Positions 1-11,393 are shown, counted from the stretch's first letter. The stretch is 35,416 bases of DNA from an uncultured Candidatus Saccharibacteria bacterium (GCA_964360085.1 CAYHVJ010000002.1:1-35416), one strand, 5' to 3'. Made by a program: numbers and translations. Notes: generated from the sequence alone by a model not told the origin.

Positions 1-36
1 GGTAGCCAAATTTTGGGGGAGTGGTAGGCTGGGAGT

Positions 37-639
37 ATGAAAAGCGCCCTTATCACTTTGGTTGCAGCTATTATTTTAGGCGGAGCGGGGTTTTATGCGT
101 GGAAGGCTTTTAGCCCTGAACCACAGCCGTCAGCGCCCGTGGTTGTAGAGGAGACGCGCAACACCTACGCCACCTCCACCTACTCGGTCAAATATCCGGG
201 CAACTTTATTCTCAACGCGCCGTTCGCTTACGGCGCGTTCGGCCCAAAGAAACCCATCTACGGGGTCAAGTTTATAATCCCCAGCACTGTTGCCACCGGC
301 ACCAACCTCTCCGCAGACAGCGGAGTCTCGGTGGAACAGCTCCCGCGCGCCAAAAACTGCACCGGCGACATCTACCTTTTGGCCAGCGTCACCGCGTACG
401 AAGTAATCGAAAACGGCACCGAGTACTCGTTTGCGAGCTCCACGGGCGCCGCCGCGGGCAACCTGTACGAAGAGCAGGTATACGCGCTCGCCACCAGCTC
501 GCCTTGCACGGCGGTGCGGTACTTTATCCACTCGACCAACATAGGCAACTACCCGGCGGGCATGGTGCGCGAGTTTGACCGCGCGGCGCTCCTCTCCACC
601 TTCGACAAAATCCGACAATCTTTGGTATCTGGCATGTAA
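37..639 (+). CDS. hypothetical protein with N-terminal membrane anchor
   Basis: 200-aa ORF. The N-terminus MKSALITLVAAIILGGAGFYAW is a single hydrophobic helix followed by a Pro-rich linker. A TGgTAGGCT box lies at 22-30, 6 nt before the ATG. No family recognised. Confidence 0.55.
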   Translation: MKSALITLVAAIILGGAGFYAWKAFSPEPQPSAPVVVEETRNTYATSTYSVKYPGNFILNAPFAYGAFGPKKPIYGVKFIIPSTVATGTNLSADSGVSVEQLPRAKNCTGDIYLLASVTAYEVIENGTEYSFASSTGAAAGNLYEEQVYALATSSPCTAVRYFIHSTNIGNYPAGMVREFDRAALLSTFDKIRQSLVSGM

Positions 640-714
640 ACCACCCCTATTCCCAAACAGCAAAATTCATGGGATACTCACGCCAGATGATGTAGTAGGC
701 AATGGGAGGGCACA

Positions 715-1362
715 ATGCGGGTACTCAAGTGTGTTGTCTTTACGGCGCTTTGTTACTTCTTGGCGACAACTTCTGCGGCAATGGCCGGAGGGCGCGTCGC
801 TCTCTCGTTTGACGACGGGCCCGACGCCAGCCTTACACCGCGGCTGCTTGACATCCTTCGGGATGCGCGGGTAACAGCCACATTCTGCCTGGTTGGCAGA
901 CGCGTCGTACAACATCCTGACATAGTCCGGCGGATACACGCGGAGGGCCACGAGCTGTGCAACCACAGCTGGAGCCATCCGGTGCTTACCGGCGGCAATG
1001 TCGGGCCGGAAATATCCAAAACCGACGCGGTTATCCGCGCGGCGACGGGTACGGTACCGGCAATCTTGCGCGCTCCGTACGGAGCAACAGGCTCGGTCGG
1101 CCAATGCCACAGCGGAAGGCCGTTTGTCGGGTGGGGAGGCACGGGCGACACGATGGACTGGCGCTACCGCAATGCGGGACGCGTCACCAGCGTCGCGGTA
1201 AGGGTGCACTCGGATGAAATCGTGCTTATGCACGACATCCACGCCACCTCTGTTGCGGCGGTGCCCGGCATCATTGCAGGGCTCCGCGCGCGCGGAATGT
1301 CGTTTGTCCACGCCTCGTCGCTTTGGAAGCACCGATGCGCCGCGCGCATCGCGGGCAAATAA
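715..1362 (+). CDS. polysaccharide deacetylase (NodB / CE4 homology domain), secreted
   Basis: Signal-like N-terminus. NodB motifs LSFDDGPD and HSWSHP, followed by LRAPYG and ...VLMHD. GGGAGGG lies upstream of the ATG. Confidence 0.8.
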   Translation: MRVLKCVVFTALCYFLATTSAAMAGGRVALSFDDGPDASLTPRLLDILRDARVTATFCLVGRRVVQHPDIVRRIHAEGHELCNHSWSHPVLTGGNVGPEISKTDAVIRAATGTVPAILRAPYGATGSVGQCHSGRPFVGWGGTGDTMDWRYRNAGRVTSVAVRVHSDEIVLMHDIHATSVAAVPGIIAGLRARGMSFVHASSLWKHRCAARIAGK

Positions 1363-1368
1363 ACAAGG

Positions 1369-1392
1369 CCCCGCCATTTGGCGGGGTTTTTT
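1369..1392 (+). terminator. rho-independent terminator after the deacetylase gene
   Basis: CCCCGCC-attt-GGCGGGG hairpin followed by TTTTTT. Confidence 0.7.
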
Positions 1393-1435
1393 CTTGCCTG
1401 TTTCTTCATAATCGCCGGGTGTATAATGAGCGGTA

Positions 1436-1879
1436 ATGAACAAAACTATTCCCGTACTACTTGTCGTATTAGTCGCCGCGGGCCTCGGCGCGTGGTGGCA
1501 GTTTGCCCCACAGCAAGCCGCGCAAGACTCCGGCAACGCTGTGCAGAAAGCAAATTTTATACGCCTCACTGCTCCGCAGCCCAACAGTGTTGTCAGCAGC
1601 CCGCTTGTTTTGACAGGAGAGGCGCGGGGCTATTGGTACTTTGAGGCAAGCTTCCCGATATTTCTTGTCGACTGGGACGGCAAAATAATCGCGCAGGGTA
1701 TTGCCACTGCAAAAGATAATTGGATGACAGAGGAGTTTGTGCCGTTTGAGGCAGAGCTCACATTTGCGCCCGACCCGAACGTATACAGCAACCGCGGAGC
1801 GCTGATATTAAGAAAAGACAACCCATCCGGCCTCCCCGAGCACGACGACGCCCTAGAGATACCGGTCATTATTAAGTAA
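1436..1879 (+). CDS. membrane-anchored Gmad2 immunoglobulin-like domain protein
   Basis: N-terminal TM helix. The pattern SSPLVLTGEARGYWYFEASFPIFLVDWDGKIIAQG...WMTEEFVPFEAELTF is typical of the Gmad2 Ig-like domain. Confidence 0.6.
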   Translation: MNKTIPVLLVVLVAAGLGAWWQFAPQQAAQDSGNAVQKANFIRLTAPQPNSVVSSPLVLTGEARGYWYFEASFPIFLVDWDGKIIAQGIATAKDNWMTEEFVPFEAELTFAPDPNVYSNRGALILRKDNPSGLPEHDDALEIPVIIK

Positions 1880-1892
1880 CGCAGAAATTTAT

Positions 1893-2153
1893 ATGGCTAA
1901 TCAAAAAAAGGTGGGGCTCGTGTTCGGGGCGATGGTAGGGGGCTTGCATGTGCTGTGGTCTATCCTCGTGTTACTCAACTGGGCACAGCCGCTCTTAGAC
2001 TTTAGCCTCTGGGCGCACATGGTTCATATTCCCGTTATCATCGGCCCGTTCGAGGCAACCGCGGCGGCTACCGTCATAATCATTGCCGCTTGTGTCGGGT
2101 ATGTGGTGGGCTACGCAGGAGCGACGGTCTGGAACCGCATCCACCGCGCGTAA
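1893..2153 (+). CDS. small integral membrane protein (2-3 TM), unknown function
   Basis: 86-aa hydrophobic ORF with backbone composition. No family recognised. Confidence 0.5.
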   Translation: MANQKKVGLVFGAMVGGLHVLWSILVLLNWAQPLLDFSLWAHMVHIPVIIGPFEATAAATVIIIAACVGYVVGYAGATVWNRIHRA

Positions 2154-2533
2154 GTATTGGCATGAAAAGTGTGTATGCAGAAACCGGCATAGGGAACGGC
2201 TCATTTTTCTCGACCGAGATAGAGGAAGGGGACAGCGAGTAATGAGTCGGTGTAGCTAAATCCTCCCGCCCAGCAGTAATAACCATGAAATACAGCTCTT
2301 TTTAACAACTTTTCACGATTATGGCCAGCATTTTAGTGAAAACTTCGGCATCGCTGGCTTCGAACTCAGTAGTTAACTACGTAATTAACCCAATAATAAA
2401 AAAGCCCCCGGCAGGGACGAGCCCTACAAGGGTCTTTTTCGTAGTGATACCGATATGTTACCGCCTCTCAACTGAAGAGTCAATGAGTTGTGGACGAGGC
2501 CAAATCCCTTATTTTTAGAGGTACAATCTAGCC

Positions 2534-2728
2534 ATGGCCAGACCCAAAGCAACCTCCGGCAAAAAGCAGGTCCGCAAGCTCACCAAAGTGGGCGGCGGTG
2601 CGTCCTACAGCCTCGCGCTCCCGGTGGAAATAATAAGAAAATTTAAGTGGAAAGAGAAGCAAAAACTCACAGTCACTGTAGACCTCAAAAACAAAAAACT
2701 AATAATCCGCGACTGGAAGGGGAGGTAG
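2534..2728 (+). CDS. AbrB/MazE/SpoVT-family DNA-binding protein (antitoxin-like), no adjacent toxin
   Basis: 64 aa. KVGGGASYSLALPVEIIRKFKWKEKQKLTVTVD...LIIRD matches the swapped-hairpin SpoVT/AbrB pattern. Confidence 0.7.
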   Translation: MARPKATSGKKQVRKLTKVGGGASYSLALPVEIIRKFKWKEKQKLTVTVDLKNKKLIIRDWKGR

Positions 2729-2729
2729 G

Positions 2730-2758
2730 TTGCAATTTTATTTCAACTGTGATATATT
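2730..2758 (+). promoter_or_regulatory. sigma70-like promoter (TTGCAA-17 nt-TGaTATATT)
   Basis: -35 TTGCAA at 2730-2735, a 17-nt spacer, and an extended -10 TGa+TATATT at 2753-2758. It starts 2 nt after the AbrB-like stop codon. Confidence 0.45.
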
Positions 2759-2874
2759 GAAAATAGAAAGTCGAAAATTCGAAAACTAAACATCGGGGGT
2801 TACGCCAACCGTTACAACGCTACGCATAACCATCACCACCCTCGAGCCACCTACTAAATAAAATTAGAGCGAAG

Positions 2875-2909
2875 ACCCGAGGAAGTTAATAAGCTTTTTC
2901 GGGTTTTTG
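2875..2909 (+). terminator. intrinsic terminator or attenuator hairpin 45 nt upstream of the 2955 ORF
   Basis: ACCCGAGGAAG-ttaataag-CTTTTTCGGGT stem (with G-U pairs) followed by TTTTT. Confidence 0.55.
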
Positions 2910-2954
2910 CTTTCTTGGTCGAACCTTATCAAGAAATTCATAAACATACAGCAT

Positions 2955-3242
2955 ATGAATCTCTATCTAATTGCTTATAGACTTGCGCGTCCGGGCCAAA
3001 ATTACGAGGCTCTCTACGCCGACATACGGTCACTTTCAGGCACCTACTGGCACAACACCACCTCTTCTTGGTTGGTGGAAAGTAGCCTATCGGCGAAACA
3101 GGTCTATAGTAACCTCAGCCGACATCTTGATGGTAACGACGAGATTGTCGTCTTCAAATTGGGAGGCGAGTTTTACGGGCAACTTCAGCCAAGTGACTTG
3201 GAGTGGCTAAGTGCTCGGACAGGTTTGTGGGTCAGCGTGTAG
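2955..3242 (+). CDS. hypothetical 95-aa protein with alternating beta/alpha pattern (ferredoxin-like, Cas2-like look; unverified)
   Basis: MNLYLIAYRL..YEALYADIRSL..WHNTTSSWLVES..SAKQVYSNLSRHL..DEIVVFKL reads as a beta-alpha-beta-alpha-beta pattern. I placed the start at the internal ATG 2955 of ORF 2907-3242. A strong terminator follows the gene. Confidence 0.5.
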   Translation: MNLYLIAYRLARPGQNYEALYADIRSLSGTYWHNTTSSWLVESSLSAKQVYSNLSRHLDGNDEIVVFKLGGEFYGQLQPSDLEWLSARTGLWVSV

Positions 3243-3256
3243 GGGCTCTCCTTGCA

Positions 3257-3290
3257 ACACAAAACCCGCCCTCCAGGGCGGGTTTTGTGT
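3257..3290 (+). terminator. strong rho-independent terminator
   Basis: ACACAAAACCCGCCC-tcca-GGGCGGGTTTTGTGT is a 15-bp perfect stem. Confidence 0.75.
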
Positions 3291-3295
3291 TAATG

Positions 3296-3322
3296 GCTAA
3301 ATTTTTCATATTTGATAGGCTT
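3296..3322 (+). repeat. 27-nt upstream element, copy 1 (before the 4-TM gene)
   Basis: GCTAAATTTTTCATATTTGATAGGCTT matches 4012-4038 at 24/27. It contains TGaTAGGCT 7 nt before ATG 3329. Confidence 0.7.
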
Positions 3323-3328
3323 TTAATC

Positions 3329-4012
3329 ATGGAAAAGAGAAGTGCATCAAATTTTTCTGACACCGAACTCCTTCAGATTGGTAAAACAAACCAAGAGTTG
3401 TCACGACAGATTCGAAGTGTCTTCAAACAGGGAATAGAGGGTATGTATTACGACATGGGCCAGGTTCAAAGAATATTGGCAGAGTTTACTGCACGAGGGG
3501 CAACTTTGATGACAGTGGCCAGCCTGTTTGCGATTCTCCCGGTTACCATGGGATATGAAAAGGTCTACTTGGCTTATTTTTTGATGTGGACATTCCCTTT
3601 CCTTTTAGTTTCCATAATATTTTTTTATCTTTCCTCTAAGAGGGCAAATATTACAAGATCAGGGAGTCTCCTTATTCCAGAAGGGTTGCCGGAAGAGCTT
3701 GTACTACTAAGGGCCCACTTTGTGGGTCTTGAAGAAATCTGCCGACAACAATATTCTTTATATCAAGAATCGCTCATATATTATCGATATAGTTCGACCG
3801 CAGTCTATAGTTATGTTATTTCTTTTGTACTAAATTATTATTTCTTTGTCTTTTTTGGAGAGCCTCCCCTTTTCTTTGCGATGATGGTTTTCGTCTTTTG
3901 TTGGGGGTTCGGAGTATACCTCATATGGTTGAGAGAAAAAGGGTCTCAAAGTAAAGCCTTCGGATCTTCTTTTTTCGAACCCGATAAGGAAAACCAAACT
4001 CCGAGTAGGTAG
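3329..4012 (+). CDS. hypothetical 4-TM membrane protein with about 50-aa soluble N-terminus
   Basis: Four hydrophobic helices: ATLMTVASLFAILPVTMGY, VYLAYFLMWTFPFLLVSIIFFYL, AVYSYVISFVLNYYFFVFFG and PLFFAMMVFVFCWGFGVYLIWL. An alternative start is ATG 3293. The 3203 start crosses the terminator and was rejected. Confidence 0.6.
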   Translation: MEKRSASNFSDTELLQIGKTNQELSRQIRSVFKQGIEGMYYDMGQVQRILAEFTARGATLMTVASLFAILPVTMGYEKVYLAYFLMWTFPFLLVSIIFFYLSSKRANITRSGSLLIPEGLPEELVLLRAHFVGLEEICRQQYSLYQESLIYYRYSSTAVYSYVISFVLNYYFFVFFGEPPLFFAMMVFVFCWGFGVYLIWLREKGSQSKAFGSSFFEPDKENQTPSR

Positions 4013-4038
4013 CTAAATCCTTCATATTTGGTAGGCTT
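4012..4038 (+). repeat. 27-nt upstream element, copy 2 (before the 377-aa gene)
   Basis: GCTAAATCCTTCATATTTGGTAGGCTT contains TGgTAGGCT 10 nt before ATG 4048. Confidence 0.7.
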
Positions 4039-4047
4039 GAGTAACTT

Positions 4048-5181
4048 ATGGAAGTCTTGTTAAAAAGACTTGGTATTTCTGTCGAACATTTAAAGTGTCT
4101 CGATGAAGTATTTCGCGCTAACTCCCCTCTGTACAACCAGATGGAGATAAATATGACACGCGAGCTAGGTACCTATATGGATGAGATTGGCAGGGAACTG
4201 TATGCGGGGGGTAAACAGACCAGAGGAAATCCGACGCTAGCTCGTCAGATGATACTCGGCGATGTAGTTGAATATATTTTTACGGGTAGAGCGTACTATC
4301 ATGCCGCTCGCTCGGAGGATAATTTTAGAAATTTTTCTAAATTAGTACTCTATTGTGTAAATCAGCTCTTACTCTTAGACACCATTACAATAAATCCACA
4401 GCTCCGCCGCGCATATATAGAAAAACTTGAAGAAGTCATTCCTCTCGATGTGTTGTATGAAAAGGAAGGGGATAGAGATTTGGCAGAAGCACTTAAGACC
4501 TCTACTTTGCTTATCCGCCAAGCGGGCTGGGATCCATACGACACCTTTGTTGACTCTCTCCTTCCTAAAACCTTGGGTTGTCCCAAAGAGCTCGTAGTTT
4601 TTTTGGAACTTATTCGTCTCAAGAAAGGACTTATTATTCCGTTATTGCTCATTCAACGACTTTTTGGCGGCGGGAAGAAAATGGCACCACCCGATTTTCT
4701 TATCTTAAAGAGGAACAGAGAGAGTTTCGGTATCGAAGTTGGCTACGAAAAAGAAAAGCAGGGGAGGGAGTTTTCCATACAGACCTCGATTCCAACATTT
4801 GCAGTTGATTTAAAAAATCACATGCATAACCGTTGTCCTAAATGTGGAGCGAATATTTTATATTGTGATTCAGTTATCAGAAAATACGCGGACGGGACAC
4901 TGTGGGGTGAGTTGGATACGGAAGGGAGATACCGTTGCGGGCAGGATTGCCAAAATTTTGATGGAACTATATGTAGATTTTCTAATTACTACGGCAAGTA
5001 TCGCGGCCGGTGCTTCTATGGCACCCAAGAAGCGGGGGACGATCGAAAAGATATGCATTATCATGCTACTTGCGTGTTAGACGACAGTTATATTTTTCGT
5101 AATAAAGAGAGGCCAATCCGAGAACATATAGGAGATTTTTTCTGTCAAATTCCTGAAATAGAGGACATCTCTAGCCTATAG
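4048..5181 (+). CDS. hypothetical 377-aa protein: helical N-domain, PD...E nuclease-like segment, Cys-rich C-terminus
   Basis: APPDFLILKRNRESFGIEVGYEK (P215-D216...E230) resembles a PD-(D/E)xK core, but the ExK is not canonical. There are 9 Cys in the last 115 aa, including CPKC-x6-C and C-x3-C-x7-C. No family recognised. Confidence 0.6.
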   Translation: MEVLLKRLGISVEHLKCLDEVFRANSPLYNQMEINMTRELGTYMDEIGRELYAGGKQTRGNPTLARQMILGDVVEYIFTGRAYYHAARSEDNFRNFSKLVLYCVNQLLLLDTITINPQLRRAYIEKLEEVIPLDVLYEKEGDRDLAEALKTSTLLIRQAGWDPYDTFVDSLLPKTLGCPKELVVFLELIRLKKGLIIPLLLIQRLFGGGKKMAPPDFLILKRNRESFGIEVGYEKEKQGREFSIQTSIPTFAVDLKNHMHNRCPKCGANILYCDSVIRKYADGTLWGELDTEGRYRCGQDCQNFDGTICRFSNYYGKYRGRCFYGTQEAGDDRKDMHYHATCVLDDSYIFRNKERPIREHIGDFFCQIPEIEDISSL

Positions 5182-5191
5182 TTTTCTACGT

Positions 5192-5219
5192 TATCCACAC
5201 AACTTGTGTATGTTGTGTA
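5192..5219 (+). promoter_or_regulatory. upstream element shared with lexA (TTGTGTA tandem)
   Basis: TATCCACACAACTTGTGTATGTTGTGTA aligns with 12644-12670 TATCCCCAAACTTGTGTATATTGTGTA at about 24 matches in 28 columns with one gap. The core AACTTGTGTATRTTGTGTA matches 18/19. Confidence 0.55.
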
Positions 5220-5251
5220 TTTACATCAAATATTAGGTGTAAAATACACAT

Positions 5252-6844
5252 ATGGGGGATAATTACATCATGTCGCTCGTTTCGATTCCAGAGGCTTCTA
5301 AATGGGCATCTAGTCACCTCAAGAGAGAGGTTTCGCCCACTAATATTTCTTACCTCGTCCAATACGGGAAGGTTAAAAAACATGGCGAAAATGGTTCCAC
5401 AATGGTACATCTCGACGACCTTAAGAAATACTACGCTTCGTATACAGGCTCGCGAGAGTTGAGTTGGAAAAGTAAGCTAGGAAATGATTTAAATTGGGCA
5501 CTATCCTTTGATAATTTACGCGAAAAAGATACGACCAAGCATGTACATCGGTTGCATCCTTATAAGGGAAAGTACATCCCTCAGCTTGTAGAGTATTTTT
5601 TGGGGGAAACCATTGATGATTTTAAGAAGGGAACCTACTTTAAGACCGGGGATATTGTTCTAGATCCATTTCTGGGCTCGGGTACTACGGTAATTCAGTC
5701 ACTCGAGATGGGTATTCACAGTGTTGGTATAGATGTCTCTGAGTTCAATTGCATGATTGCAAGCGTAAAAGCTTCTCACTACGACTCCGACTATTTGCGC
5801 GCGGCAGTTCAAAAAATGCTTAACTCTCTAGAGTCTTTTGAGGATGATAACAAAATTGAGGAATTTGAGATTGAGCTTCTGTCTGAGCTTTCCGTGTTTA
5901 ATAATAAGCATTTTCCGGGTCATGATTTTAAATACAAATTAAACCAAGGCAACATAAAAGAAAGCATATTGGGCACAGAAAAAGAGAAAGTATTTCTTCC
6001 TACATACAATAAACTGGTAAAAAAATACTCAATTGTTTTAAATCAGAAGGACTCCGATTCCTTTTTGGATAAATGGTACTTATTTAATGTTCGTCGAGAG
6101 ATAGACCATGTGTTCGAGGCTATTAAAAAAGAGAAGGATGTCAAAACACGTAAAATTCTAGGTCTCATTTTGAGCAGGACAATACGTTCATGCCGAGCCA
6201 CCACTCATAGTGACTTAGCAACTCTTAAAGAGCCCCAAGTTACAACTTACTACTGTTTTAAGCATAAAAAGATTTGTAAGCCCCTCTTCTCTATCAAAAC
6301 AATGCTTAATCGCTATGCCGTCGATACTGCCGGCCGCATTGATGAGTTCAAAAAACTACGCAAACCCGCGCACTTCTCTATTTTAAAAGGGGATTCTCGC
6401 AAGGTGGATATTTTTGCTGGTACTGAAAAAACAAACAAAGAGTTTTCAAAAATCTTGAAAAAACAAAAAATTGCAGGAATATTCTGCTCCCCGCCGTATG
6501 TAGGTCAAATAGACTACCATGAGCAACATGCCTACGCGTACGACCTCCTAGGTTTTAAACGACATGATGACTTGGAAATCGGCCCTTTGTATAAAGGTCA
6601 GGGTCTCGAAGCACGGCAATCATATGTGCAAGGGATAGCAGATGTTCTAAACAACTGCAAGAAGTTTTTCAAAGAGGATTATGATGTATTTCTGGTTGCG
6701 AATGATAAATACAATCTCTATCCGCAAATTGCTGAAAAATCAGGCATGAAAATTGTAAACCAATTCAAGCGCCCAGTACTAAACCGCACCGAAAGGGATC
6801 GTACCCCATATTCAGAAATTATCTTTCACTTCAAATCCTCGTAG
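5252..6844 (+). CDS. site-specific DNA amino-methyltransferase (SPPY motif IV; probably N4-cytosine, possibly N6-adenine)
   Basis: Motif X/I is HPYKGKYIPQLV...GDIVLDPFLGSGTT (aa 138-146, nt 5663-5689). Motif IV is FCSPPY (aa 413-416, nt 6488-6499). About 265 aa lie between them, which is the alpha-class order with a putative TRD. An alternative start is ATG 5270. Confidence 0.85.
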   Translation: MGDNYIMSLVSIPEASKWASSHLKREVSPTNISYLVQYGKVKKHGENGSTMVHLDDLKKYYASYTGSRELSWKSKLGNDLNWALSFDNLREKDTTKHVHRLHPYKGKYIPQLVEYFLGETIDDFKKGTYFKTGDIVLDPFLGSGTTVIQSLEMGIHSVGIDVSEFNCMIASVKASHYDSDYLRAAVQKMLNSLESFEDDNKIEEFEIELLSELSVFNNKHFPGHDFKYKLNQGNIKESILGTEKEKVFLPTYNKLVKKYSIVLNQKDSDSFLDKWYLFNVRREIDHVFEAIKKEKDVKTRKILGLILSRTIRSCRATTHSDLATLKEPQVTTYYCFKHKKICKPLFSIKTMLNRYAVDTAGRIDEFKKLRKPAHFSILKGDSRKVDIFAGTEKTNKEFSKILKKQKIAGIFCSPPYVGQIDYHEQHAYAYDLLGFKRHDDLEIGPLYKGQGLEARQSYVQGIADVLNNCKKFFKEDYDVFLVANDKYNLYPQIAEKSGMKIVNQFKRPVLNRTERDRTPYSEIIFHFKSS

Positions 6845-6890
6845 AGTCCTTCCGTAGACGACAGCATGGTTAGGTGTTAGCGTATAGCTC

Positions 6891-7682
6891 ATGGCGCTTT
6901 CGTCAGCTACCAAGAAGAAAATCCACGATTTCTTGAAGGAAAAAGTGGAGAAGAAAGTAAGTACATACACTTTGAGTGGAATGGACTCCGCGAAGCCTTT
7001 TCAGTACTCCTTGTTTACAAAATAAGGATACTTAGTTAAGGGGTTTATACACGGGTGTGAGACAGGCATGGGTAATTGGCATGAAACTATTGCAAAAATG
7101 GTATCTAGTGGGAATTTTGTGCACGCGAAAAAGTTACAGGGCAAATCTAGACTTGCAGGCGTTGTTACGGTGAAGGCTCAAAAAACATTTGAAGACATCC
7201 TTAGCGATCTAGACAGTGTTAGAAGGCGTCCAGACCATAAGAAGGAATCTCTTGAAATATATAAAGCAAGTACAAAAGGAAAAACAGTTGCCAGGTACCA
7301 GACTGTAGATTTGTACCTACAACGAAAAAATGGAGAAGAGATTTACTTGGAGATAAAAGGCCCGAAGCCAAATAAAAATGAGATGAGGGCAGCGAAAAGA
7401 GATTTGCTAGAAATTTATGCAATGAGAGCAGCGGCGGGTAAACGAGTAAAAATATTTCTCGGTATGTACTATAACCCGTACTTTCCCAGAAAGTATGATA
7501 GATGGACGTGCTTAAAGTTTTTCGATAATGGGCAGGATTTTTTGGTAGGTAAAGATTTTTGGGATTTCCTAGGTGGCAAAGGTGCCTATGAAGATTTGAT
7601 AACAATTTATGAGAGTGTGGGTAAAGAAATACGTCCTGCTTTAGAAAAGAAATTGAAAAGCATGAAGGGGAGTAAAAGATAA
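6891..7682 (+). pseudogene. PD-ExK type II restriction-endonuclease-like gene interrupted by one in-frame TAA (7023-7025)
   Basis: ORF 6891-7025 (44 aa, ...KPFQYSLFTK*) and ORF 7068-7682 are in the same frame, since 7068-6891=177. The catalytic pattern is VD81LYL-x-EIYLE95IK97GPKPN (nt 7308-7358). The ELK/EIK-x-PKPN look recalls the TdeIII family from memory only, unverified. Confidence 0.6.
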
Positions 7683-7698
7683 ACTCCTGAATTAGCTC
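7681..7698 (+). repeat. 18-bp direct repeat, copy 1 (AAACTCCTGAATTAGCTC)
   Basis: Matches 8280-8297 at 17/18. It starts inside the stop codon of the nuclease-like gene. Confidence 0.65.
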
Positions 7699-7729
7699 AG
7701 TAGTTAATTACGGATTAATATAGAGGCTC

Positions 7730-8302
7730 ATGAACCTACTGCACAAAACTACTGCGCCGGGGGAGAATAACCGCAAGGCGGATAACTCGGATAGGAAGGA
7801 GCTTTTTCCTAAAGACAAGCGGCCCCACCCCGCCGCTTATCACAAAGAGCAGTGGGCTTTTATTTCGGATATTTCTTTGCGGGAGAATATCGCTTATCAA
7901 ATGCAGTACCTCGAGTTTTCGGTCAACTTGTACAACGAGTACCAAATATACCTGACTATCGAGTCGCTTTTGTGCAAGGACATCCTCGGTGCGGTAGGGG
8001 GGATAGTCGAGGCCGCTCTGTTTGATATGATCTATACCGCCAAGACGGCCGCCGGCATGCCGATGGGCGTGCGCAACGACTTTGTCGCCCTGCTTGGCGA
8101 GGCGTACCACAGCTTTAAGTTTATCGACAAGGACATGTGGCATTACTTCCACGATCTGCGCAAAGTGCGCAACTATGTGCACCTCAAGGCGGCGGACTTC
8201 CAAGAGCACACCGCTTACACGGTAGAGGAGGCCAATGAGGCTCTCACTATGCTCGAAAAATTTCGCCGGAGCTTTGCCAAAACTCCTGAATTAACTCCAT
8301 AA
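7730..8302 (+). CDS. HEPN-like protein (candidate RNase / abortive-infection component)
   Basis: All-helical 190-aa protein with HDLRKVRNYVHL (R144-x6-H151, RN at 147-148; nt 8159-8182). This resembles the LRxxRNxxxH signature of HEPN/DUF4145-type domains. Confidence 0.5.
   Translation: MNLLHKTTAPGENNRKADNSDRKELFPKDKRPHPAAYHKEQWAFISDISLRENIAYQMQYLEFSVNLYNEYQIYLTIESLLCKDILGAVGGIVEAALFDMIYTAKTAAGMPMGVRNDFVALLGEAYHSFKFIDKDMWHYFHDLRKVRNYVHLKAADFQEHTAYTVEEANEALTMLEKFRRSFAKTPELTP
8280..8297 (+). repeat. 18-bp direct repeat, copy 2 (AAACTCCTGAATTAACTC)
   Basis: Lies within the last codons (KTPELTP*) of the HEPN-like gene. Confidence 0.65.
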
Positions 8303-8304
8303 AT

Positions 8305-8346
8305 AAAAAAAGCCCCCTTCCGGTATTTTGAGGGAGGGGGCTTTTT
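8305..8346. terminator. bidirectional rho-independent terminator at the right edge of the island
   Basis: An A-run, then GCCCCCTTCC-ggtattttga-GGGAGGGGGC, then TTTTT. It sits between convergent genes. Confidence 0.75.
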
Positions 8347-8358
8347 GTCGAACTGTCG

Positions 8359-8673
8359 TTAATCGACTAGTGCTGCACCAAAGACGAGGATTCCGTCGCG
8401 CATCTGCAGTGCGCTCCGCACGTAGAATTTAATCCACGCGCCTCGAGGCATAGGGTCGGAGAGTCCACGGTTTTCGTTTATGTGGAGACGGAGGTCTCCG
8501 TTCGGCAGTGTAATTTTTGGACCCCCTATCTGCGTAATGCTCCCGCGAGCAATAAAGCCGTAACCATTTGAGTCTTTGGTGAAGCATAACTGCCCCTTAA
8601 ACTGCGGGAGAGTCGCCACATTTACCATGTTCGGGGCTGCCTCACCCATGTCGAATTCGAGCGCACTTCTCAT
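8359..8673 (-). CDS. hypothetical protein with cold-shock-domain-like N-terminal segment
   Basis: I chose the start at MRSALEF because GGGGG lies 6 nt upstream. KGQLCFTKDSNGYGFIA resembles the GxVKWFNxxKGFGFI core of CSDs. Confidence 0.45.
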   Translation of the reverse strand: MRSALEFDMGEAAPNMVNVATLPQFKGQLCFTKDSNGYGFIARGSITQIGGPKITLPNGDLRLHINENRGLSDPMPRGAWIKFYVRSALQMRDGILVFGAALVD

Positions 8674-8754
8674 GCTAACCCCCTGTTGCAACAGATGGAA
8701 CAACTGCCGGTACTGTAGCAAAATTGGCCGGATTTGCCAGTCTAAGAACACCAA

Positions 8755-8774
8755 AACGAGTTCCGCAAAAAGTA
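8755..8774 (+). repeat. 20-bp perfect direct repeat, copy 1 (AACGAGTTCCGCAAAAAGTA)
   Basis: Identical to 9117-9136. The two copies bracket the DUF1059-like gene. Confidence 0.8.
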
Positions 8775-8803
8775 GGGGAGTATCATTGTGCTAAAATAGA
8801 TTT

Positions 8804-9040
8804 ATGAAAACTTTTACCTGTAAGGAGATTATGGATAACAAGGGCGGGTGCGACATGGAATTTAGCGGAGACGAAATGATGAAGGTGGCAGGCGCTTGTG
8901 GTCAACATGTCATGCAATCGACCGACGAGGCGCATAAGCCAATGCGCGACATGATGACAACTACGATGTCTAGTCCAAACGCAAAGGAAGAACAGGCAAA
9001 ATGGTTTACTTGGTTTCAAGGGCTCTGGGACTCAAAATAG
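8804..9040 (+). CDS. DUF1059-like small protein
   Basis: MKTFTCKEIMDNKGGCDMEFSGDE...AGACGQHVMQ matches the MKxFxCxD.G..Cdf...g DUF1059 pattern. TGcTAAAAT lies at 8789-8797, 6 nt before the ATG. Confidence 0.6.
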   Translation: MKTFTCKEIMDNKGGCDMEFSGDEMMKVAGACGQHVMQSTDEAHKPMRDMMTTTMSSPNAKEEQAKWFTWFQGLWDSK

Positions 9041-9088
9041 TTTTACAGTATTCTGCAAAAGAAACCGATTCCCCACACGGTGTGTACA

Positions 9089-9106
9089 AGTATTTTGCAA
9101 AATACT
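9089..9106. promoter_or_regulatory. 18-bp perfect palindrome AGTATTTTGCAAAATACT (site 2), candidate ArsR-family operator
   Basis: Part of a 29-nt repeat at 9085-9113 that matches 9500-9528 at 28/29. A degenerate copy lies at 9047-9064 (14/18). Confidence 0.55.
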
Positions 9107-9116
9107 GAAATAGATC

Positions 9117-9136
9117 AACGAGTTCCGCAAAAAGTA
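9117..9136 (+). repeat. 20-bp perfect direct repeat, copy 2
   Basis: Identical to 8755-8774. Confidence 0.8.
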
Positions 9137-9187
9137 ACTTGTAACAAAAAATATGCCGCGCTTTCGCGCGGCACTGCTGTGTCTTGG

Positions 9188-9391
9188 TTAGCCCAAAATT
9201 CCGGCTATCCATGCTGCGGGGATATAGAGGATGCAACCAAGCACCAGTAACGCCCCTGCTCCGTACCACGAGCAGCAGACGCACTGCACCAAAAGCTGCT
9301 CGTTCTTTTCGTCCCGGGCCTTTTCGTACTCGCTCCGGCGGTCGACCGGACGCGGGACCCTCTGTTTGGGAGGATACAAGTCTATAGGCAT
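9188..9391 (-). CDS. small (67-aa) membrane protein with CVCC cluster at the TM boundary
   Basis: Internal start with a GAGGAGG Shine-Dalgarno 6 nt upstream. The C-terminal TM is GAGALLVLGCILYIPAAWIAGIL, preceded by QCVCCSW. A hairpin plus T-run terminator lies at about 9152-9170 on the minus strand. Confidence 0.55.
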   Translation of the reverse strand: MPIDLYPPKQRVPRPVDRRSEYEKARDEKNEQLLVQCVCCSWYGAGALLVLGCILYIPAAWIAGILG

Positions 9392-9503
9392 ATTTACCTC
9401 CTCGTGAGGGGTGGATGAACTCGTCACCACCACTCTAACGCCGCACGCTTTTTTGTCCACCTACTCTATCTTTTATCTTTTTTATCCCCACCTGCCTTAT
9501 ACA

Positions 9504-9521
9504 AGTATTTTGCAAAATACT
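9504..9521. promoter_or_regulatory. 18-bp perfect palindrome AGTATTTTGCAAAATACT (site 3) in the divergent arsR-family promoter region
   Basis: It ends 15 nt upstream of the -10 hexamer TATAGG (9537-9542; the TGc of the TGcTATAGG box starts at 9534), which precedes ATG 9547. A further degenerate copy (16/18) lies at 9798-9815, upstream of the TspO gene. Confidence 0.6.
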
Positions 9522-9546
9522 GCAATAGAGCTATGCTATAGGTATC

Positions 9547-9822
9547 ATGAGTACGATAAATTATCGTCAGCTCGAGCGCATTGTAAAAGGCTTCGCTAAT
9601 CACCGGCGCCTGCAGATTCTAGAACTGCTCCGGCAAAGGCCGGAGCTGTCCGTCGTCGACATTTCCGAGACACTCAAGATAGGGTACGAGAACGCCTCCG
9701 ACCATCTGCGAAAGATGGCTATCGCCGGCCTGTTGCTAAAACGATACGAAGGCAACATCGTCCGCCACAAACTCACTCCCCGCGCCGAATCTATTCTAGT
9801 GTTTTGCAAAAGACTGCAATAG
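9547..9822 (+). CDS. ArsR/SmtB-family winged-helix transcriptional regulator
   Basis: FANHRRLQILELL...SVVDISETLKIGYENASDHLRKMAIAGLL is the classic ArsR HTH pattern. No ELCVC-type metal site was seen. Confidence 0.8.
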   Translation: MSTINYRQLERIVKGFANHRRLQILELLRQRPELSVVDISETLKIGYENASDHLRKMAIAGLLLKRYEGNIVRHKLTPRAESILVFCKRLQ

Positions 9823-9846
9823 AAAAGAGTACAGTACTATAAACAT

Positions 9847-10242
9847 ATGAACGAGCCGCAGACATACGCTCAATTTATACGCCCGTCGTGGGCGCCGCCC
9901 TCTTGGGTTTTTGGGCCGGTGTGGACTGTGCTGTACGCGATTATTATTGCCAGCTACGGTTACGTCGGCTGGCTGTACTGGCAGGGGAGGTTGCCGTTTA
10001 TGGTGCTGCTCCCTTTTATCCTCAACGTCATTTTTAATCTCGCGTTTACGCCGCTGCAGTTCGGGCTCAAAAGTAATATACTCGCGGCCGCAGACATCTT
10101 GCTGGTGCTCGGCACGCTTGTGTGGGCGCTCTGGGCTGTGTGGCCGTACGCACCATGGGTGTCGTACGCCAACCTCCCGTACCTTGCGTGGGTAAGCTTT
10201 GCCACGGTGCTCCAACTTACTATCACTAAGCTTAATTGGTAA
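9847..10242 (+). CDS. TspO/MBR family tryptophan-rich sensory protein (short form)
   Basis: PSWAPPSWVFGPVWTVLY is the signature. The protein is Trp-rich, multi-TM and 131 aa. Confidence 0.8.
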   Translation: MNEPQTYAQFIRPSWAPPSWVFGPVWTVLYAIIIASYGYVGWLYWQGRLPFMVLLPFILNVIFNLAFTPLQFGLKSNILAAADILLVLGTLVWALWAVWPYAPWVSYANLPYLAWVSFATVLQLTITKLNW

Positions 10243-10454
10243 TGCGGCGGGAGAGGAGAGGCTAGGGTATAGTGAGGATATGAATAACAAAAGAAGCGGC
10301 GGGAGGATGGACTTTAACGCGCGGCGTCCGCAGGCCTCGCGCATGCAGCCTGTTGTGCGCAAGGCAGGCATGCGCAATGCCAAAAAACCAAAGGGCGGCA
10401 AATAGGCAGGCAAACTGAGGCGCACACCCAATCTTCATGCGGCTTCATGTATCA

Positions 10455-10781
10455 ATGAAGGGTATGATATTTTTTCTTTTGGTCGGGGCTATACTCGGCG
10501 CTTTATCGGTTATTTTTGTCCTGCAGAACATTGTCCCTATCACGGTTACCTTTTTGACTTGGCAGATAGAGGGCTCGCTCGCGGTCGTATTGTTTTTGGC
10601 GATGATGAGCGGGATGTTTGTCGGGTTGTTGATGATTTTGCCCGGCCTTATCCGCGATGAGTTCCGGTACTCCAAGCTCAGGCAGGAAAAAAAGGAGGTC
10701 GAAGACGAGCTAACCACTACGCGCAAGGTTATCAACGAGGTGGCCGTCAACACCGCGGCGGCAGGACCGACTGTACTATAA
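10455..10781 (+). CDS. LapA-domain (DUF1049) inner-membrane protein
   Basis: Two TM helices with the ...FVLQN...VTFLTWQIEGSLAVV... pattern, then a charged coiled tail. Alternative starts are 10437 and 10464. Confidence 0.6.
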   Translation: MKGMIFFLLVGAILGALSVIFVLQNIVPITVTFLTWQIEGSLAVVLFLAMMSGMFVGLLMILPGLIRDEFRYSKLRQEKKEVEDELTTTRKVINEVAVNTAAAGPTVL

Positions 10782-10792
10782 TTAAACCGTTT

Positions 10793-11314: not shown

Positions 11315-11326
11315 AAGGTGTCGTAT

Positions 11327-11355
11327 TTGACAGGCTAATTTATATAGTGTATAGT
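11327..11355 (+). promoter_or_regulatory. consensus sigma70 promoter (TTGACA-17 nt-TATAGT)
   Basis: -35 at 11327-11332 and -10 at 11350-11355. Followed by a 38-nt leader with a GGGGGA Shine-Dalgarno before ATG 11394. Confidence 0.6.
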
Positions 11356-11393
11356 GTCGGCAGACATCAGATTTTTTAGCAAAGGGGGAACAG

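What the first reader, a model, noticed from the sequence alone, without database searches (positions are those of the whole stretch)
2160..8350. Low-GC, single-strand accessory island with defence-type content and no visible mobility gene
Seen: composition falls from roughly 60% GC to roughly 30-45% across about 6 kb (hand counts of 17/60 at 3601-3660 and 40/60 at 13441-13500). Every ORF in the island is on the + strand. The island ends at a strong bidirectional terminator (8305-8346).

Content, in order:
- an AbrB/MazE-like gene;
- a non-coding promoter-to-terminator unit;
- three orphan ORFs;
- an SPPY methyltransferase;
- a PD-ExK nuclease with a premature stop;
- a HEPN-like gene.

No integrase, transposase or flanking tRNA is present. 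The left 370 bp (2160-2530) are non-coding.

Inference: this is a horizontally acquired defence island. It may be assembled from small cassettes rather than from one mobile element.
Basis: partly seen in the sequence, partly recalled or inferred. Interest (0 to 1): 0.65.

Follow-up and report, generated by a model that had tools for sequence, protein, structure and literature searches.

The report
Defence-gene hotspot in a Kaiserbacteria genome
The AT-rich stretch is a slot in a groundwater Kaiserbacteria-like chromosome where related genomes hold different defence genes; here it holds a restriction-modification set with a broken cutting enzyme, an unstudied third gene, and short repeats at the gene-block borders.

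Summary
The stretch 2160-8350 is 42% GC against 54-58% in the flanks. All its genes are on the + strand, it ends at a strong two-way terminator, and the 35-kb window has no integrase, transposase or nearby tRNA.

Only about 2729-7680 is compositionally foreign (GC3 0.39-0.41). The AbrB-like gene and the HEPN-like gene at the two ends have host-like composition and are resident.

The core is a three-gene Type II restriction-modification module:
- an uncharacterised 377-aa predicted nuclease with zinc-binding residues;
- an SPPY methyltransferase;
- a TdeIII-family endonuclease.

These three genes lie together in about 50 loci from several phyla. In this window the endonuclease has been replaced by a homolog only 25% identical to the one in the sister lineages. 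It is also knocked out by a single AAA-to-TAA change.

Two sister lineages carry the same core at the same site with synonymous divergence near 1, so the acquisition is old. Other relatives carry a Type III, an m5C Type II, an MmeI-like or a PDC-S11 system at this site. A collinear Kaiserbacteria genome carries none.

A conserved 28-nt leader precedes each gene block, and a 31-nt partly palindromic motif brackets the HEPN-like gene. Homology between relatives breaks exactly at these elements.

Verdict: a defence hotspot with exchange of gene blocks. Its kind is known; the third gene and the junction elements are new details.

The parts
2154..2533 (.). Non-coding left border. It holds the palindrome-containing motif CTCAGTAGTTAACTACG (2365-2381), a weak terminator-like hairpin (about 2404-2440) and, just before the AbrB-like gene, a sequence that resembles a diverged leader element (about 2497-2522, judged by eye).
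   Evidence: No conserved ORF lies here. The motif has 2 copies in the window against 0.01 expected. It also lies upstream of the AbrB-like gene in L025 and L006. Hairpin z-scores are only -1.3 and -1.9.
2534..2728 (+). 64-aa AbrB/MazE/SpoVT-like small DNA-binding protein. It is a resident gene at the left edge of the slot.
   Evidence: Pfam PF04014 E 6.7e-4, below the cut-off; phrog_4324 E 1.4e-5. GC3 0.65, host-like. 90-91% identical in L006 and L025 at the same position. No PDB sequence match.
2730..2915 (+). Promoter-like site (TTGCAA, 17 nt, TATATT) followed by about 100 nt and a 20-bp terminator hairpin. This is a non-coding unit, or a leader, ahead of the 95-aa gene.
   Evidence: fold -44.4 kcal/mol, z -4.7, mostly from the terminator stem. 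No Rfam hit. Absent from L006 and L025. No tandem repeats.
2955..3242 (+). 95-aa protein of family phrog_1090. It has homologs in temperate phages. A perfect 17-bp terminator hairpin follows at 3256-3291.
   Evidence: phrog_1090 E 2.9e-20. tblastn finds it in 27 phage records, annotated as hypothetical, 'SinR' or 'CRISPR-associated endoribonuclease'. Terminator -30.3 kcal/mol, z -6.9. GC3 0.56.
3294..3321 (+). Leader element, copy 1 (TGGCTAAATTTTTCATATTTGATAGGCT), 7 nt before the ATG at 3329.
   Evidence: (repeat D4).
3329..4012 (+). Membrane protein of 227 aa when read from ATG 3329 (the ORF also opens at 3293 and 3203). It has no family match. Its TAG stop codon forms the first three bases of leader copy 2.
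   Evidence: About four hydrophobic stretches (five overlapping segments). No Pfam, PADLOC, NCBIfam or PHROG hit. GC3 0.40. The start is inferred from the conserved spacing between leader and ATG. Absent from L006 and L025.
4010..4037 (+). Leader element, copy 2 (TAGCTAAATCCTTCATATTTGGTAGGCT), 10 nt before the ATG of the 377-aa gene. Homology with L006 and L025 restarts here.
4048..5181 (+). 377-aa uncharacterised protein, the third gene of the restriction-modification module. It is predicted to be a PD-(D/E)xK-like nuclease with two zinc sites.
   Evidence: 312 homologs, none with a Pfam domain, all named hypothetical. Invariant residues across the family down to 20% identity: E181, P198, Q203, D216, E230, G232, K235 and eight Cys/His. 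The methyltransferase is adjacent in 41 of 57 loci and a TdeIII-family gene lies nearby in 47 of 57. AlphaFold model pLDDT 78, with no significant PDB match. dN/dS 0.06 against L025.
5252..6844 (+). 530-aa Type II DNA methyltransferase. It has DPFLGSGTT at residue 138 and SPPY at residue 413, about 270 residues apart. It is intact and strongly conserved.
   Evidence: PADLOC MTase_II PDLC03249 E 2.8e-220; Pfam N6_N4_Mtase E 8.6e-15. 95% identical to L006 and L025, dN/dS 0.025-0.03. Motif positions.
6891..7682 (+). TdeIII-family Type II restriction endonuclease gene. An in-frame TAA at 7023-7025 inactivates it, replacing a conserved Lys codon (AAA to TAA).
   Evidence: RE_TdeIII E 1.6e-43. Translation and stop codon. 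Alignment with intact homologs, where the stop sits at the second K of LFTK-K-GYL. The same TAA is present in the replicate assembly L005. It is 25% identical to the endonuclease of L006 and L025 and 73% identical to the endonuclease of two-gene systems L082-84.
7681..7711 (+). Junction motif, copy 1 (AAACTCCTGAATTAGCTCAGTAGTTAATTAC), containing the near-palindrome GTAGTTAATTAC, 19 nt before the start of the HEPN-like gene.
   Evidence: Identical in window, L006 and L025. Homology with relatives resumes at 7676.
7730..8302 (+). 190-aa HEPN-like protein. It is a resident companion gene found beside different defence systems in related genomes.
   Evidence: Named hits in the family are all Patescibacteria or unclassified 'bacterium' (47-91% identity). 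Invariant H141, L143, R144, R147, N148, H151. AlphaFold model pLDDT 82.5. The top PDB matches are all HEPN domains, with probability 0.9-0.97, TM about 0.6 and E 0.24-1. GC3 0.68. Genomic contexts.
8280..8310 (+). Junction motif, copy 2 (degenerate), overlapping the 3' end of the HEPN-like gene.
   Evidence: Repeat D5. Better-preserved second copies exist in L025 (5557-5587) and L088 (8541-8571). In L088 the motif is read in a different frame of the gene end, so the conservation is at the DNA level.
8307..8346 (.). Two-way intrinsic terminator between the HEPN-like gene (+) and the convergent gene at 8359-8673 (-).
   Evidence: -26.9 and -21.5 kcal/mol; z -4.6 and -3.1. The sequence shows an A-run before the stem and a T-run after it.

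Best explanation
What it is. The region is a chromosomal defence hotspot of a Kaiserbacteria-like member of the Paceibacterota (Patescibacteria) from groundwater. It is not a self-mobile island. Two resident genes frame it: a small AbrB-like DNA-binding gene on the left and a HEPN-like gene on the right. Between them lies AT-rich cargo made of separate gene blocks.

The blocks in this window are:
(i) a non-coding promoter-to-terminator unit plus a 95-aa phage-type protein;
(ii) a membrane protein;
(iii) a three-gene Type II restriction-modification module: a 377-aa predicted nuclease, an SPPY methyltransferase and a TdeIII-family endonuclease.

What is shown:
- The three-gene module is a conserved unit found in several phyla.
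- It entered this site before three sampled lineages split.
- Its endonuclease gene was later swapped precisely, from stop codon to stop codon, for a distant homolog of the kind found in two-gene systems.
- That copy carries a single nonsense mutation.
- Related genomes hold other restriction or defence systems at the same site, and one holds none.
- Each block begins with the same 28-nt leader, placed 6-13 nt before the start codon.
- A 31-nt partly palindromic motif brackets the HEPN-like gene.
- Homology between relatives starts and stops at these elements.

What is inferred:
- Blocks are exchanged by recombination in the conserved leader and junction sequences and in the flanking resident genes. 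The incoming DNA would be taken up from other AT-rich, probably Patescibacteria, donors.
- The leader doubles as a shared expression signal (promoter or translation-initiation region), so any incoming block is expressed.
- The palindromic motif is an operator, possibly for the AbrB-like protein.
- In this genome the module now acts as a methyltransferase with the 377-aa protein. Classical restriction by the TdeIII enzyme is lost.
For: Composition and boundaries.

Assembly continuity.

Module identity.

Linkage of the three genes across 57 loci.

Same site in sister lineages, with island dS at least as high as flank dS.

Endonuclease swap. The methyltransferases are 95% identical while the endonucleases are 25% identical. 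Nucleotide homology ends at 6837 and resumes at 7676. The donor-type two-gene system is seen.

Single nonsense change with all invariant residues kept, also present in the replicate assembly.

Different cargo beside the HEPN-like gene:
- Type III system plus an OLD-like ATPase (L088);
- PDC-S11 plus a Type IIG enzyme (L086);
- NYN plus an MmeI-like enzyme (L089);
- m5C Type II system (L093);
- NYN (L025).

Cargo-less collinear Kaiserbacteria locus with uniform GC.

Leader element. It occurs in front of the membrane-protein gene, the 377-aa gene, PDDEXK_3, an RNase_T-like gene, a Type III mod gene and a 251-aa gene (9 copies in 5 lineages). Chance expectation is 0.0 per 35 kb. It is absent from about 50 loci of the same module in other phyla.

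Junction motif.

Breakpoints coincide with the elements.

No mobility genes or nearby tRNA.
Against: - No recombination event has been observed directly. Breakpoints at conserved elements would also arise if the elements were simply the only sequence kept under selection, for example as regulatory sites.
- The leader has no significant fold (z -0.2), and no recombinase gene is nearby, so a site-specific mechanism has no support.
- The 377-aa protein has no significant structural or profile match. Its nuclease role rests on conserved residues alone.
- The AbrB assignment is below Pfam's threshold.
- The methyltransferase shows balanced AT-to-GC and GC-to-AT changes in all three lineages. Its low GC is therefore stationary and is not by itself proof of foreign origin.
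- Evidence for the leader comes from only five closely related lineages.
Confidence: 0.7

Rival explanations
1. A single genomic island was recently acquired in one horizontal transfer event, and its mobility gene was lost or lies outside the window.
For: Low GC and distinct tetranucleotide usage. The module is spread across phyla. A relative lacks it.
Against: The core is shared at the same site by three lineages with dS about 0.9-1.4, as high as the flanks. The parts have different histories: the blocks between the AbrB-like gene and the 377-aa gene differ in all three lineages, the endonuclease was swapped, and the HEPN-like gene is resident. No integrase, transposase, tRNA or island-wide flanking repeats were found.
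Confidence: 0.1
2. The region is native and ancestral. Its low GC reflects weak selection on rarely expressed genes under AT-biased mutation rather than foreign origin.
For: The methyltransferase GC3 is stationary at 0.38-0.41 in three lineages, with balanced directional changes. The genes sit at the same locus in three lineages.
Against: The same three-gene module occurs at 55-87% identity in distant phyla. It is absent from the collinear Kaiserbacteria locus L096. Other close relatives carry different defence systems at the same site. The 377-aa gene shows an excess of AT-to-GC changes in the window lineage (35 against 9 at third positions).
Confidence: 0.1
3. The leader and junction motifs are recombination sites of a cassette system served by a recombinase encoded elsewhere in the genome. 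This would be an integron-like array of defence genes without a local integrase.
For: Same-strand blocks are each preceded by the same 28-nt element, sometimes starting at the stop codon of the previous gene. There are three copies in a row in L088. Direct repeats bracket single genes (716-nt and 599-nt units). Homology breaks fall at the elements.
Against: No integrase lies within 35 kb here or in the 7-20 kb relatives. The leader is not a structured, attC-like palindrome. Its fixed distance to the start codon fits an expression signal at least as well. It was not found in viral contigs.
Confidence: 0.15
4. The region is an assembly or binning chimera that joins an AT-rich contig to a GC-rich one.
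For: A sharp change in composition. One replicate contig (L001) ends at window 2256.
Against: Replicate assembly L005 spans 2043-12825 without gaps at 99.93% identity. Coverage is similar across pieces (about 4-5x). Three other lineages, from unrelated samples, have the same gene joins.
Confidence: 0.02

Closest known systems
TdeIII Type II restriction-modification system of Treponema denticola (TDE0911 and its methyltransferase; Pfam PF09520)
   Same: The endonuclease belongs to the same Pfam family (E 1.6e-43). It sits next to a co-oriented N6_N4-type methyltransferase. Horizontal spread of TdeIII-like pairs is documented (PMC3467074).
   Different: TdeIII is a two-gene system. Here, and in about 50 other loci, a conserved 377-aa gene is a third member. 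The endonuclease here is a nonsense pseudogene and belongs to a different subfamily from the one in its sister lineages. The recognition sequence is unknown. GGNCC shows no clear avoidance (65 observed against 83 expected).
Chromosomal defence hotspots with conserved flanks, such as the E. coli immigration control region and the core defence hotspots described in Pseudomonas and in P2/P4 elements (from general knowledge, not tested here)
   Same: The cargo of restriction and defence systems varies between conserved flanking genes in related genomes. The cargo is AT-rich. There is no mobility gene inside.
   Different: This is in a Patescibacteria genome. Each block carries the same 28-nt leader. 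A HEPN-like gene bracketed by a partly palindromic motif is a constant companion.
Integron cassette arrays
   Same: Same-strand, tightly packed gene blocks are separated by a repeated short element. Cargo is exchanged block by block.
   Different: No intI integrase. The element is not an attC-type structured imperfect palindrome (no significant fold). It lies at a fixed short distance before the start codon, like an expression signal. Blocks can be whole operons.
Promoter/stem-loop cassettes (PeSL) that flank shuffled gene modules in T4-type phages (from general knowledge)
   Same: Short repeated regulatory sequences at module borders could act both as expression signals and as substrates for homologous recombination.
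   Different: This is a cellular chromosome, not a phage. The element has no stem-loop. It is unrelated in sequence.
HEPN-domain toxins of HEPN-MNT pairs, and the YutE/DUF86 family
   Same: The 190-aa protein is predicted to be an all-helical bundle whose best PDB matches are these proteins. It has an invariant R-x6-H motif.
   Different: No Pfam HEPN model matches it. No MNT partner lies next to it. It has a conserved N-terminal extension. It sits beside restriction systems rather than in a two-gene toxin-antitoxin pair.

Membership tests
Type II restriction-modification system (TdeIII family) | DNA methyltransferase with an AdoMet-binding motif and a (S/D/N)PP(Y/F) catalytic motif | tested here: met
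   DPFLGSGTT at residue 138 and SPPY at residue 413. PADLOC MTase_II E 2.8e-220; Pfam PF01555 E 8.6e-15.
Type II restriction-modification system (TdeIII family) | Adjacent endonuclease of family PF09520 | tested here: met
   RE_TdeIII E 1.6e-43, 46 nt downstream of the methyltransferase on the same strand.
Type II restriction-modification system (TdeIII family) | Intact endonuclease reading frame | tested here: not met
   In-frame TAA at 7023-7025 in place of a conserved Lys. It is also present in the replicate assembly.
Type II restriction-modification system (TdeIII family) | Methyltransferase and endonuclease share one recognition sequence | not testable with these tools
   This needs methylome data or enzyme assays. 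Palindrome counts gave no clear signal for GGNCC.
HEPN domain | Conserved R-x(4-6)-H motif | tested here: met
   R144 and H151 are invariant, with R147 and N148 between them, in 28 family members.
HEPN domain | Helical-bundle fold matching solved HEPN structures | tested here: inconclusive
   The top 15 Foldseek hits are HEPN proteins (probability up to 0.97, TM 0.58-0.67), but E-values are 0.24-2.
HEPN domain | Match to a curated HEPN profile | tested here: not met
   No Pfam, NCBIfam, PADLOC or PHROG hit.
AbrB/MazE/SpoVT swapped-hairpin DNA-binding proteins | Match to PF04014 above the curated cut-off | tested here: inconclusive
   20 bits against a cut-off of 24.7, E 6.7e-4. No PDB sequence match.
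Toxin-antitoxin pair (MazEF or VapBC type) | A recognisable toxin gene directly next to the antitoxin-like gene | tested here: not met
   In the window the next features are a non-coding unit and a phrog_1090 protein with no toxin-family hit. In L025 an NYN nuclease follows the AbrB-like gene.
Type III toxin-antitoxin (ToxIN-like) for the RNA unit plus the 95-aa gene | Tandem-repeat antitoxin RNA before a terminator and a toxin gene | tested here: not met
   The order promoter, short RNA, terminator, ORF is present. There are no tandem repeats in 2760-2870, and no ToxN/AbiE-type hit.
Integrative genomic island or prophage | Integrase or transposase, tRNA or att repeats at the ends | tested here: not met
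   No such Pfam hit in the window. The only tRNA is at 27235. No island-wide terminal repeats.
Integron | intI integrase and structured attC sites | tested here: not met
   No integrase. The leader folds no better than shuffled sequence (z -0.2).
Defence hotspot (variable defence cargo between conserved flanks) | Different defence systems, or none, at the syntenic site in related genomes | tested here: met
   Six different cargo sets and one cargo-less locus, with shared landmark genes.
PD-(D/E)xK nuclease superfamily (377-aa protein) | Core acidic and Lys residues on an alpha-beta-beta-beta-alpha-beta fold | tested here: inconclusive
   Invariant E181, D216 (in PPDF), E230 and K235 lie on predicted strands 217-220 and 226-231. 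The spacing is E-x-G-x-x-K rather than (D/E)-x-K. Foldseek's best hit, the AvaII endonuclease, has E 1.5.

The most novel reading that the evidence does not exclude
The 28-nt leader and the partly palindromic junction motif define a cassette-exchange system specific to this Kaiserbacteria-like clade. It would be a landing pad that captures and expresses incoming defence operons without a local integrase. The 377-aa protein would be a previously unrecognised second nuclease of a three-component Type II restriction system, able to keep the system active when the TdeIII-type enzyme is lost.
Probability: 0.15. Interest if true: 0.8.

Novelty: new variant of a known kind. Interest (0 to 1): 0.5.

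Why it matters
Patescibacteria (CPR) have tiny genomes and largely lack CRISPR. How they obtain and replace phage defences is poorly known. This locus gives a concrete example with clear borders: one chromosomal slot, seven states across relatives, and short conserved sequences exactly at the exchange points.

It also flags a 377-aa family that travels with a methyltransferase and a TdeIII-type endonuclease in about 50 loci from several phyla. That family matches no model in Pfam, NCBIfam, PHROGs or PADLOC. It is a testable candidate for a new restriction-modification component.

The precise swap of only the endonuclease gene, followed by a single nonsense hit, is a clean natural example of how restriction genes are replaced and silenced while the methyltransferase is kept.

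Tried and rejected
- Rfam, at both gathering and E-value thresholds, found nothing for the promoter-to-terminator unit or the junction elements.
- A ToxIN-like reading of the RNA unit plus the 95-aa gene was dropped because the RNA has no tandem repeats.
- The 377-aa protein gave no usable match in any of the following: PDB by sequence, Foldseek against PDB, profile-profile comparison with the TdeIII family, Pfam on distant relatives, plasmid records and viral contigs.
- The 95-aa and membrane proteins were not found in viral contigs. The RNA unit was not found in phage records by blastn. The leader was not found in viral contigs.
- A search of species-representative genomes with the 86-aa left-flank protein gave only relatives at 50-67% identity and no clean empty site. 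The useful cargo-less locus came later, through the HEPN-like family.
- Palindrome avoidance did not reveal the system's target. GGNCC is only mildly low.
- An error of mine: the C-terminal endonuclease query was one base out of frame, which led to a wrong interim note that the window's endonuclease matched none of the 57 loci. This was corrected.
- The chimera explanation was rejected.

Full report

Yes. GC is 0.423 in 2160-8350, against 0.577 to the left and 0.544 to the right. Tetranucleotide usage departs most from the rest of the window at 3751-7500. All credible genes from 37 to 8302 are on the + strand. The hairpin at 8307-8346 is strong on both strands and sits between convergent genes.

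The window has no integrase or transposase, and its only tRNA is at 27235. The rest of the window is ordinary chromosome: GroES/GroEL, RNase J, LepA, MurJ, a PIF1 helicase, a sortase and RNase P RNA.

The join is not an assembly artefact. A contig from an independent replicate assembly of the same groundwater well (L005) covers window 2043-12825 at 99.93% identity without gaps.

**2. Where are the real borders?**

Composition per gene shows that only part of the stretch is foreign-looking.

| Gene | GC3 |
|---|---|
| Host genes in the window | 0.56-0.74 |
| AbrB-like gene | 0.65 |
| 95-aa gene | 0.56 |
| Membrane-protein gene | 0.40 |
| 377-aa gene | 0.41 |
| Methyltransferase gene | 0.41 |
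| Endonuclease gene | 0.39 |
| HEPN-like gene | 0.68 |

The AT-rich block is therefore about 2729-7680 (GC 0.408).

**3. What are the genes?**

- **Methyltransferase (5252-6844).** It is a full-length match to a PADLOC Type II methyltransferase model (E 2.8e-220). It has DPFLGSGTT at residue 138 and SPPY at residue 413.
- **Endonuclease (6891-7682).** It is a TdeIII-family Type II restriction endonuclease (Pfam E 1.6e-43) interrupted by an in-frame TAA at 7023-7025. In an alignment with intact homologs, the stop replaces a conserved Lys in LFTK-K-GYL. This is a single AAA-to-TAA change, and every other invariant residue is kept. The replicate assembly has the same TAA.
- **190-aa protein (7730-8302).** It has no profile match. 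Its family has an invariant H.LR..RN..H motif (R144-x6-H151). Its predicted all-helical structure matches solved HEPN proteins best, with probability up to 0.97 and TM about 0.6 but weak E-values. 'HEPN-like' is a fair label.
- **64-aa protein (2534-2728).** It matches the MazE/AbrB model only below threshold.
- **95-aa protein (2955-3242).** It belongs to phrog_1090 and has homologs in temperate phages, which depositors name variously.
- **Membrane protein.** It has no relatives in any library searched.
- **Promoter-to-terminator unit (2730-2915).** It exists as described but matches no RNA family. Its fold energy comes mostly from the terminator stem.

**4. The 377-aa 'orphan' is not an orphan.**

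It has 312 homologs at 56-86% identity in contigs attributed to Roizmanbacteria, Omnitrophica, Zixibacteria, Verrucomicrobia, Kiritimatiellia and others. None has a Pfam domain or a name.

Among 57 loci fetched with a family alignment:
- a methyltransferase of the 530-aa family is immediately adjacent in 41, and elsewhere in the locus in 6 more;
- a TdeIII-family gene is adjacent or near in 47;
- the loci that lack one or the other are almost all too short to tell.

The usual order is methyltransferase, 377-aa gene, endonuclease. In the window's lineage the order is 377-aa gene, methyltransferase, endonuclease.

An exhaustive profile search found only 113 clusters at 50% identity among 1.8 billion representatives. 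Across the family, down to 20% identity, the invariant residues are E181, P198, Q203, D216 (in PPDF), E230, G232, K235 and eight Cys/His. The acidic and Lys residues lie on the predicted small beta-sheet. This looks like a PD-(D/E)xK-type nuclease core with two zinc sites.

That reading is an inference from the sequence pattern only. Foldseek, PDB profile search, profile-profile comparison with the TdeIII family and Pfam scans of distant members all gave nothing significant.

Two-gene systems without the 377-aa gene also exist: a methyltransferase 61% identical to the window's, plus an endonuclease. The third gene is therefore an add-on to a working pair.

**5. History at this site.**

Two sister lineages carry the same core at the same place: L006-L009 from four unrelated datasets, and L025. 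The table gives protein identity to the window.

| Gene | Identity to the window |
|---|---|
| 86-aa left-flank gene (L006; the L025 contig does not reach it) | 81% |
| AbrB-like | 90-91% |
| 377-aa | 79-87% |
| Methyltransferase | 95% |
| HTH, TspO, LapA, PPIase and LexA-like genes to the right | 63-93% |

The sister islands are equally AT-rich, with GC of 0.35-0.41 in most of the block.

Synonymous divergence is about 0.9-1.0 for the methyltransferase and is saturated or 1.4 for the 377-aa gene. For flanking genes it is 0.5-1.3. The core was therefore present before these lineages split and has not moved between them recently.

The methyltransferase shows balanced AT-to-GC and GC-to-AT changes in all three lineages (third positions 38/30, 34/40 and 39/40). 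Its low GC is stationary. The 377-aa gene shows an AT-to-GC excess in the window lineage (35 against 9).

**6. The locus is a mosaic.**

- *Between the AbrB-like gene and the 377-aa gene* the three lineages have unrelated content. The window has the RNA unit, the 95-aa gene and the membrane protein. L025 has an NYN nuclease. L006 has three unknown genes.
- *The endonuclease.* The endonucleases of L006 and L025 are 91% identical to each other but only 25% identical to the window's, although the methyltransferases are 95% identical. Nucleotide homology stops at the methyltransferase stop codon (6837) and resumes just after the endonuclease stop codon (7676). The window's endonuclease is instead 73% identical to that of the two-gene systems L082-84. 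So only the endonuclease gene was replaced, precisely, and the replacement is the copy that carries the nonsense mutation.
- *A possible reason for the inactivation (my inference).* A non-cognate or poorly matched endonuclease would be harmful and would be quickly inactivated. This cannot be tested here.

**7. The site is a hotspot.**

Among hits that carry a taxon name, the HEPN-like family is found only in Patescibacteria or unclassified 'bacterium' records. In related genomes the HEPN-like gene sits beside different defence genes:
- L088: a Type III methyltransferase, an OLD/GajA-like ATPase and a Type III endonuclease, preceded by PDDEXK_3 and RNase_T-like genes;
- L086: the PADLOC candidate PDC-S11, an AAA ATPase and a Type IIG enzyme;
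- L089: an NYN gene and an MmeI-family enzyme;
- L093: an m5C methyltransferase with a 271-aa partner.

Landmark genes show that this is the same chromosomal neighbourhood. They are the MliC-like gene, the PIF1 helicase, the LexA-like gene, the YgjP-like gene and the HTH gene.

A 97-kb contig of a Candidatus Kaiserbacteria genome (L096) is collinear with the window on both sides. Identities are 86% for the DEAD helicase, 86% for the LexA-like gene, 72% for PIF1 and 76% for Zip. Its GC is uniform at 0.52-0.62. It has none of the cargo, and only a C-terminal fragment of the HEPN-like gene remains at the site. This is the closest thing to an empty site, and it also places the host among Kaiserbacteria-like Paceibacterota.

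**8. Junction elements.**

Two short sequences recur exactly where the blocks meet.

*The 28-nt leader.* TAGCTAAATCCTTCATATTTGrTAGGCT lies 6-13 nt before the start codon of:
- the membrane-protein gene and the 377-aa gene in the window;
- the 377-aa gene in L006 and L025;
- the PDDEXK_3, RNase_T-like and Type III mod genes in L088 (three copies in a row);
- a 251-aa gene in L093.

In several cases its first three bases are the stop codon of the preceding gene. Chance expectation is zero per 35 kb. The leader is absent from the roughly 50 loci that carry the same restriction-modification module in other phyla. It therefore belongs to the host locus, not to the cargo. It has no significant fold.

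*The 31-nt junction motif.* AAACTCCTGAATTAGCTCAGTAGTTAATTAC is identical in the window, L006 and L025 just before the HEPN-like gene. A degenerate second copy overlaps the 3' end of that gene in the window, L025 and L088. In L088 it is read in a different frame, so the conservation is at the DNA level. Its palindromic core, GTAGTTAACTAC, also lies upstream of the AbrB-like gene in all three lineages.

*Breakpoints.* Window-to-L025 homology runs 2506-2731, 4009-6837, 7676-8297 and 9480-9843. It starts and stops at these elements.

**9. Best reading.**

This is a defence hotspot in which resident genes and short conserved junction sequences stay fixed while defence blocks are exchanged. The exchange most likely happens by homologous recombination at the junctions and flanks. 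The leader probably doubles as an expression signal.

The exchange mechanism and the roles of the leader, the palindrome and the 377-aa protein are inferences. The mosaic structure, the linkage of the three genes, the endonuclease swap and its inactivation are shown.

A site-specific, integron-like mechanism is not excluded, but there is no recombinase or structured site to support it.

**10. Novelty and score.**

Type II restriction-modification systems, silenced endonucleases and defence hotspots are all known. The new details are:
- a conserved third gene in a TdeIII-type system;
- a clade-specific leader repeated before every block;
- a HEPN-like gene as a constant companion of restriction systems in these Patescibacteria.

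I rate this a new variant of a known kind, with interest about 0.5.

Noticed in passing
window 1-2728 and 7701-35416: GATC is strongly under-represented in the host part of the window: 16 observed against about 75 expected from a maximal-order Markov model. CTAG is at half its expectation and CCWGG at 0.55. This suggests long exposure to a GATC-specific restriction system. The island has 7 GATC sites in 5 kb.
   Followed up: partly
window 9089-9115, 9498-9529, 9789-9823; also L025 5598 and 5911, L088 8955-8990: A third family of roughly 30-nt repeats, with a perfect 18-bp palindrome (AGTATTTTGCAAAATACT), flanks the ArsR-type HTH gene (9547-9822) and precedes the TspO gene. It looks like an operator set for that regulator.
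   Followed up: partly
window 8755-8774 and 9117-9136: A perfect 20-nt direct repeat, AACGAGTTCCGCAAAAAGTA, occurs 362 nt apart in the stretch right of the island.
   Followed up: no
window 8298-9479: This 1.2-kb stretch holds the terminator, a 104-aa gene on the - strand, a 78-aa gene and a 90-aa gene on the - strand. It is absent from L025, where the HEPN-like gene is followed directly by the HTH gene. This is a further insertion or deletion next to the hotspot.
   Followed up: partly
window 7730-7789 and L006 7297-7356: L006 keeps only the first 20 codons of the HEPN-like gene, followed by a stop after 24 codons. All 6 nucleotide differences from the window in those 20 codons are synonymous third-position changes.
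   Followed up: partly
window 32500-33600: A second low-GC patch (0.41-0.43) holds a 295-aa ORF (32703-33590) with a weak LAGLIDADG-like match (E 3e-4, below the cut-off). It directly abuts lepA. It may be a free-standing homing endonuclease.
   Followed up: no
window 19000-20000: A third low-GC patch (0.43-0.46) holds a Trp-repressor/HTH_23-like 138-aa ORF (19012-19428), next to the RNase J gene.
   Followed up: no
window 27801-28110 (-): The RNase P RNA match only just reaches Rfam's gathering score (100.7 against 100). It spans 310 nt for a 367-position model, as expected for a reduced Patescibacteria-type RNA.
   Followed up: no
window 13391; L006 13103-14454; L089 15506-16627: In L006 and L089 the LexA-like gene is followed by another small restriction-modification pair (a 273-275-aa N6_N4 methyltransferase plus a 175-202-aa gene). 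In the window the PIF1 helicase follows directly. This is a second variable restriction site nearby.
   Followed up: partly
window 6330-6379: Five of the eight mismatches between the window and the replicate assembly L005 cluster within 50 nt inside the methyltransferase gene. This could be strain variation or low-coverage error.
   Followed up: no
window 1893-2153; L010-L024: The 86-aa membrane protein at the left flank has homologs at 50-67% identity in Patescibacteria. It also has homologs in records labelled Methylocystis, Planctomycetales and Omnitrophota. In one Paceibacterota genome (L011) it lies directly next to a TspO gene.
   Followed up: partly
L092 (Klebsiella phage ST437-OXA245phi4.1, record 24788-25057): The phage homolog of the 95-aa protein sits next to the portal gene of a P2-like phage, among small accessory genes.
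   Followed up: no
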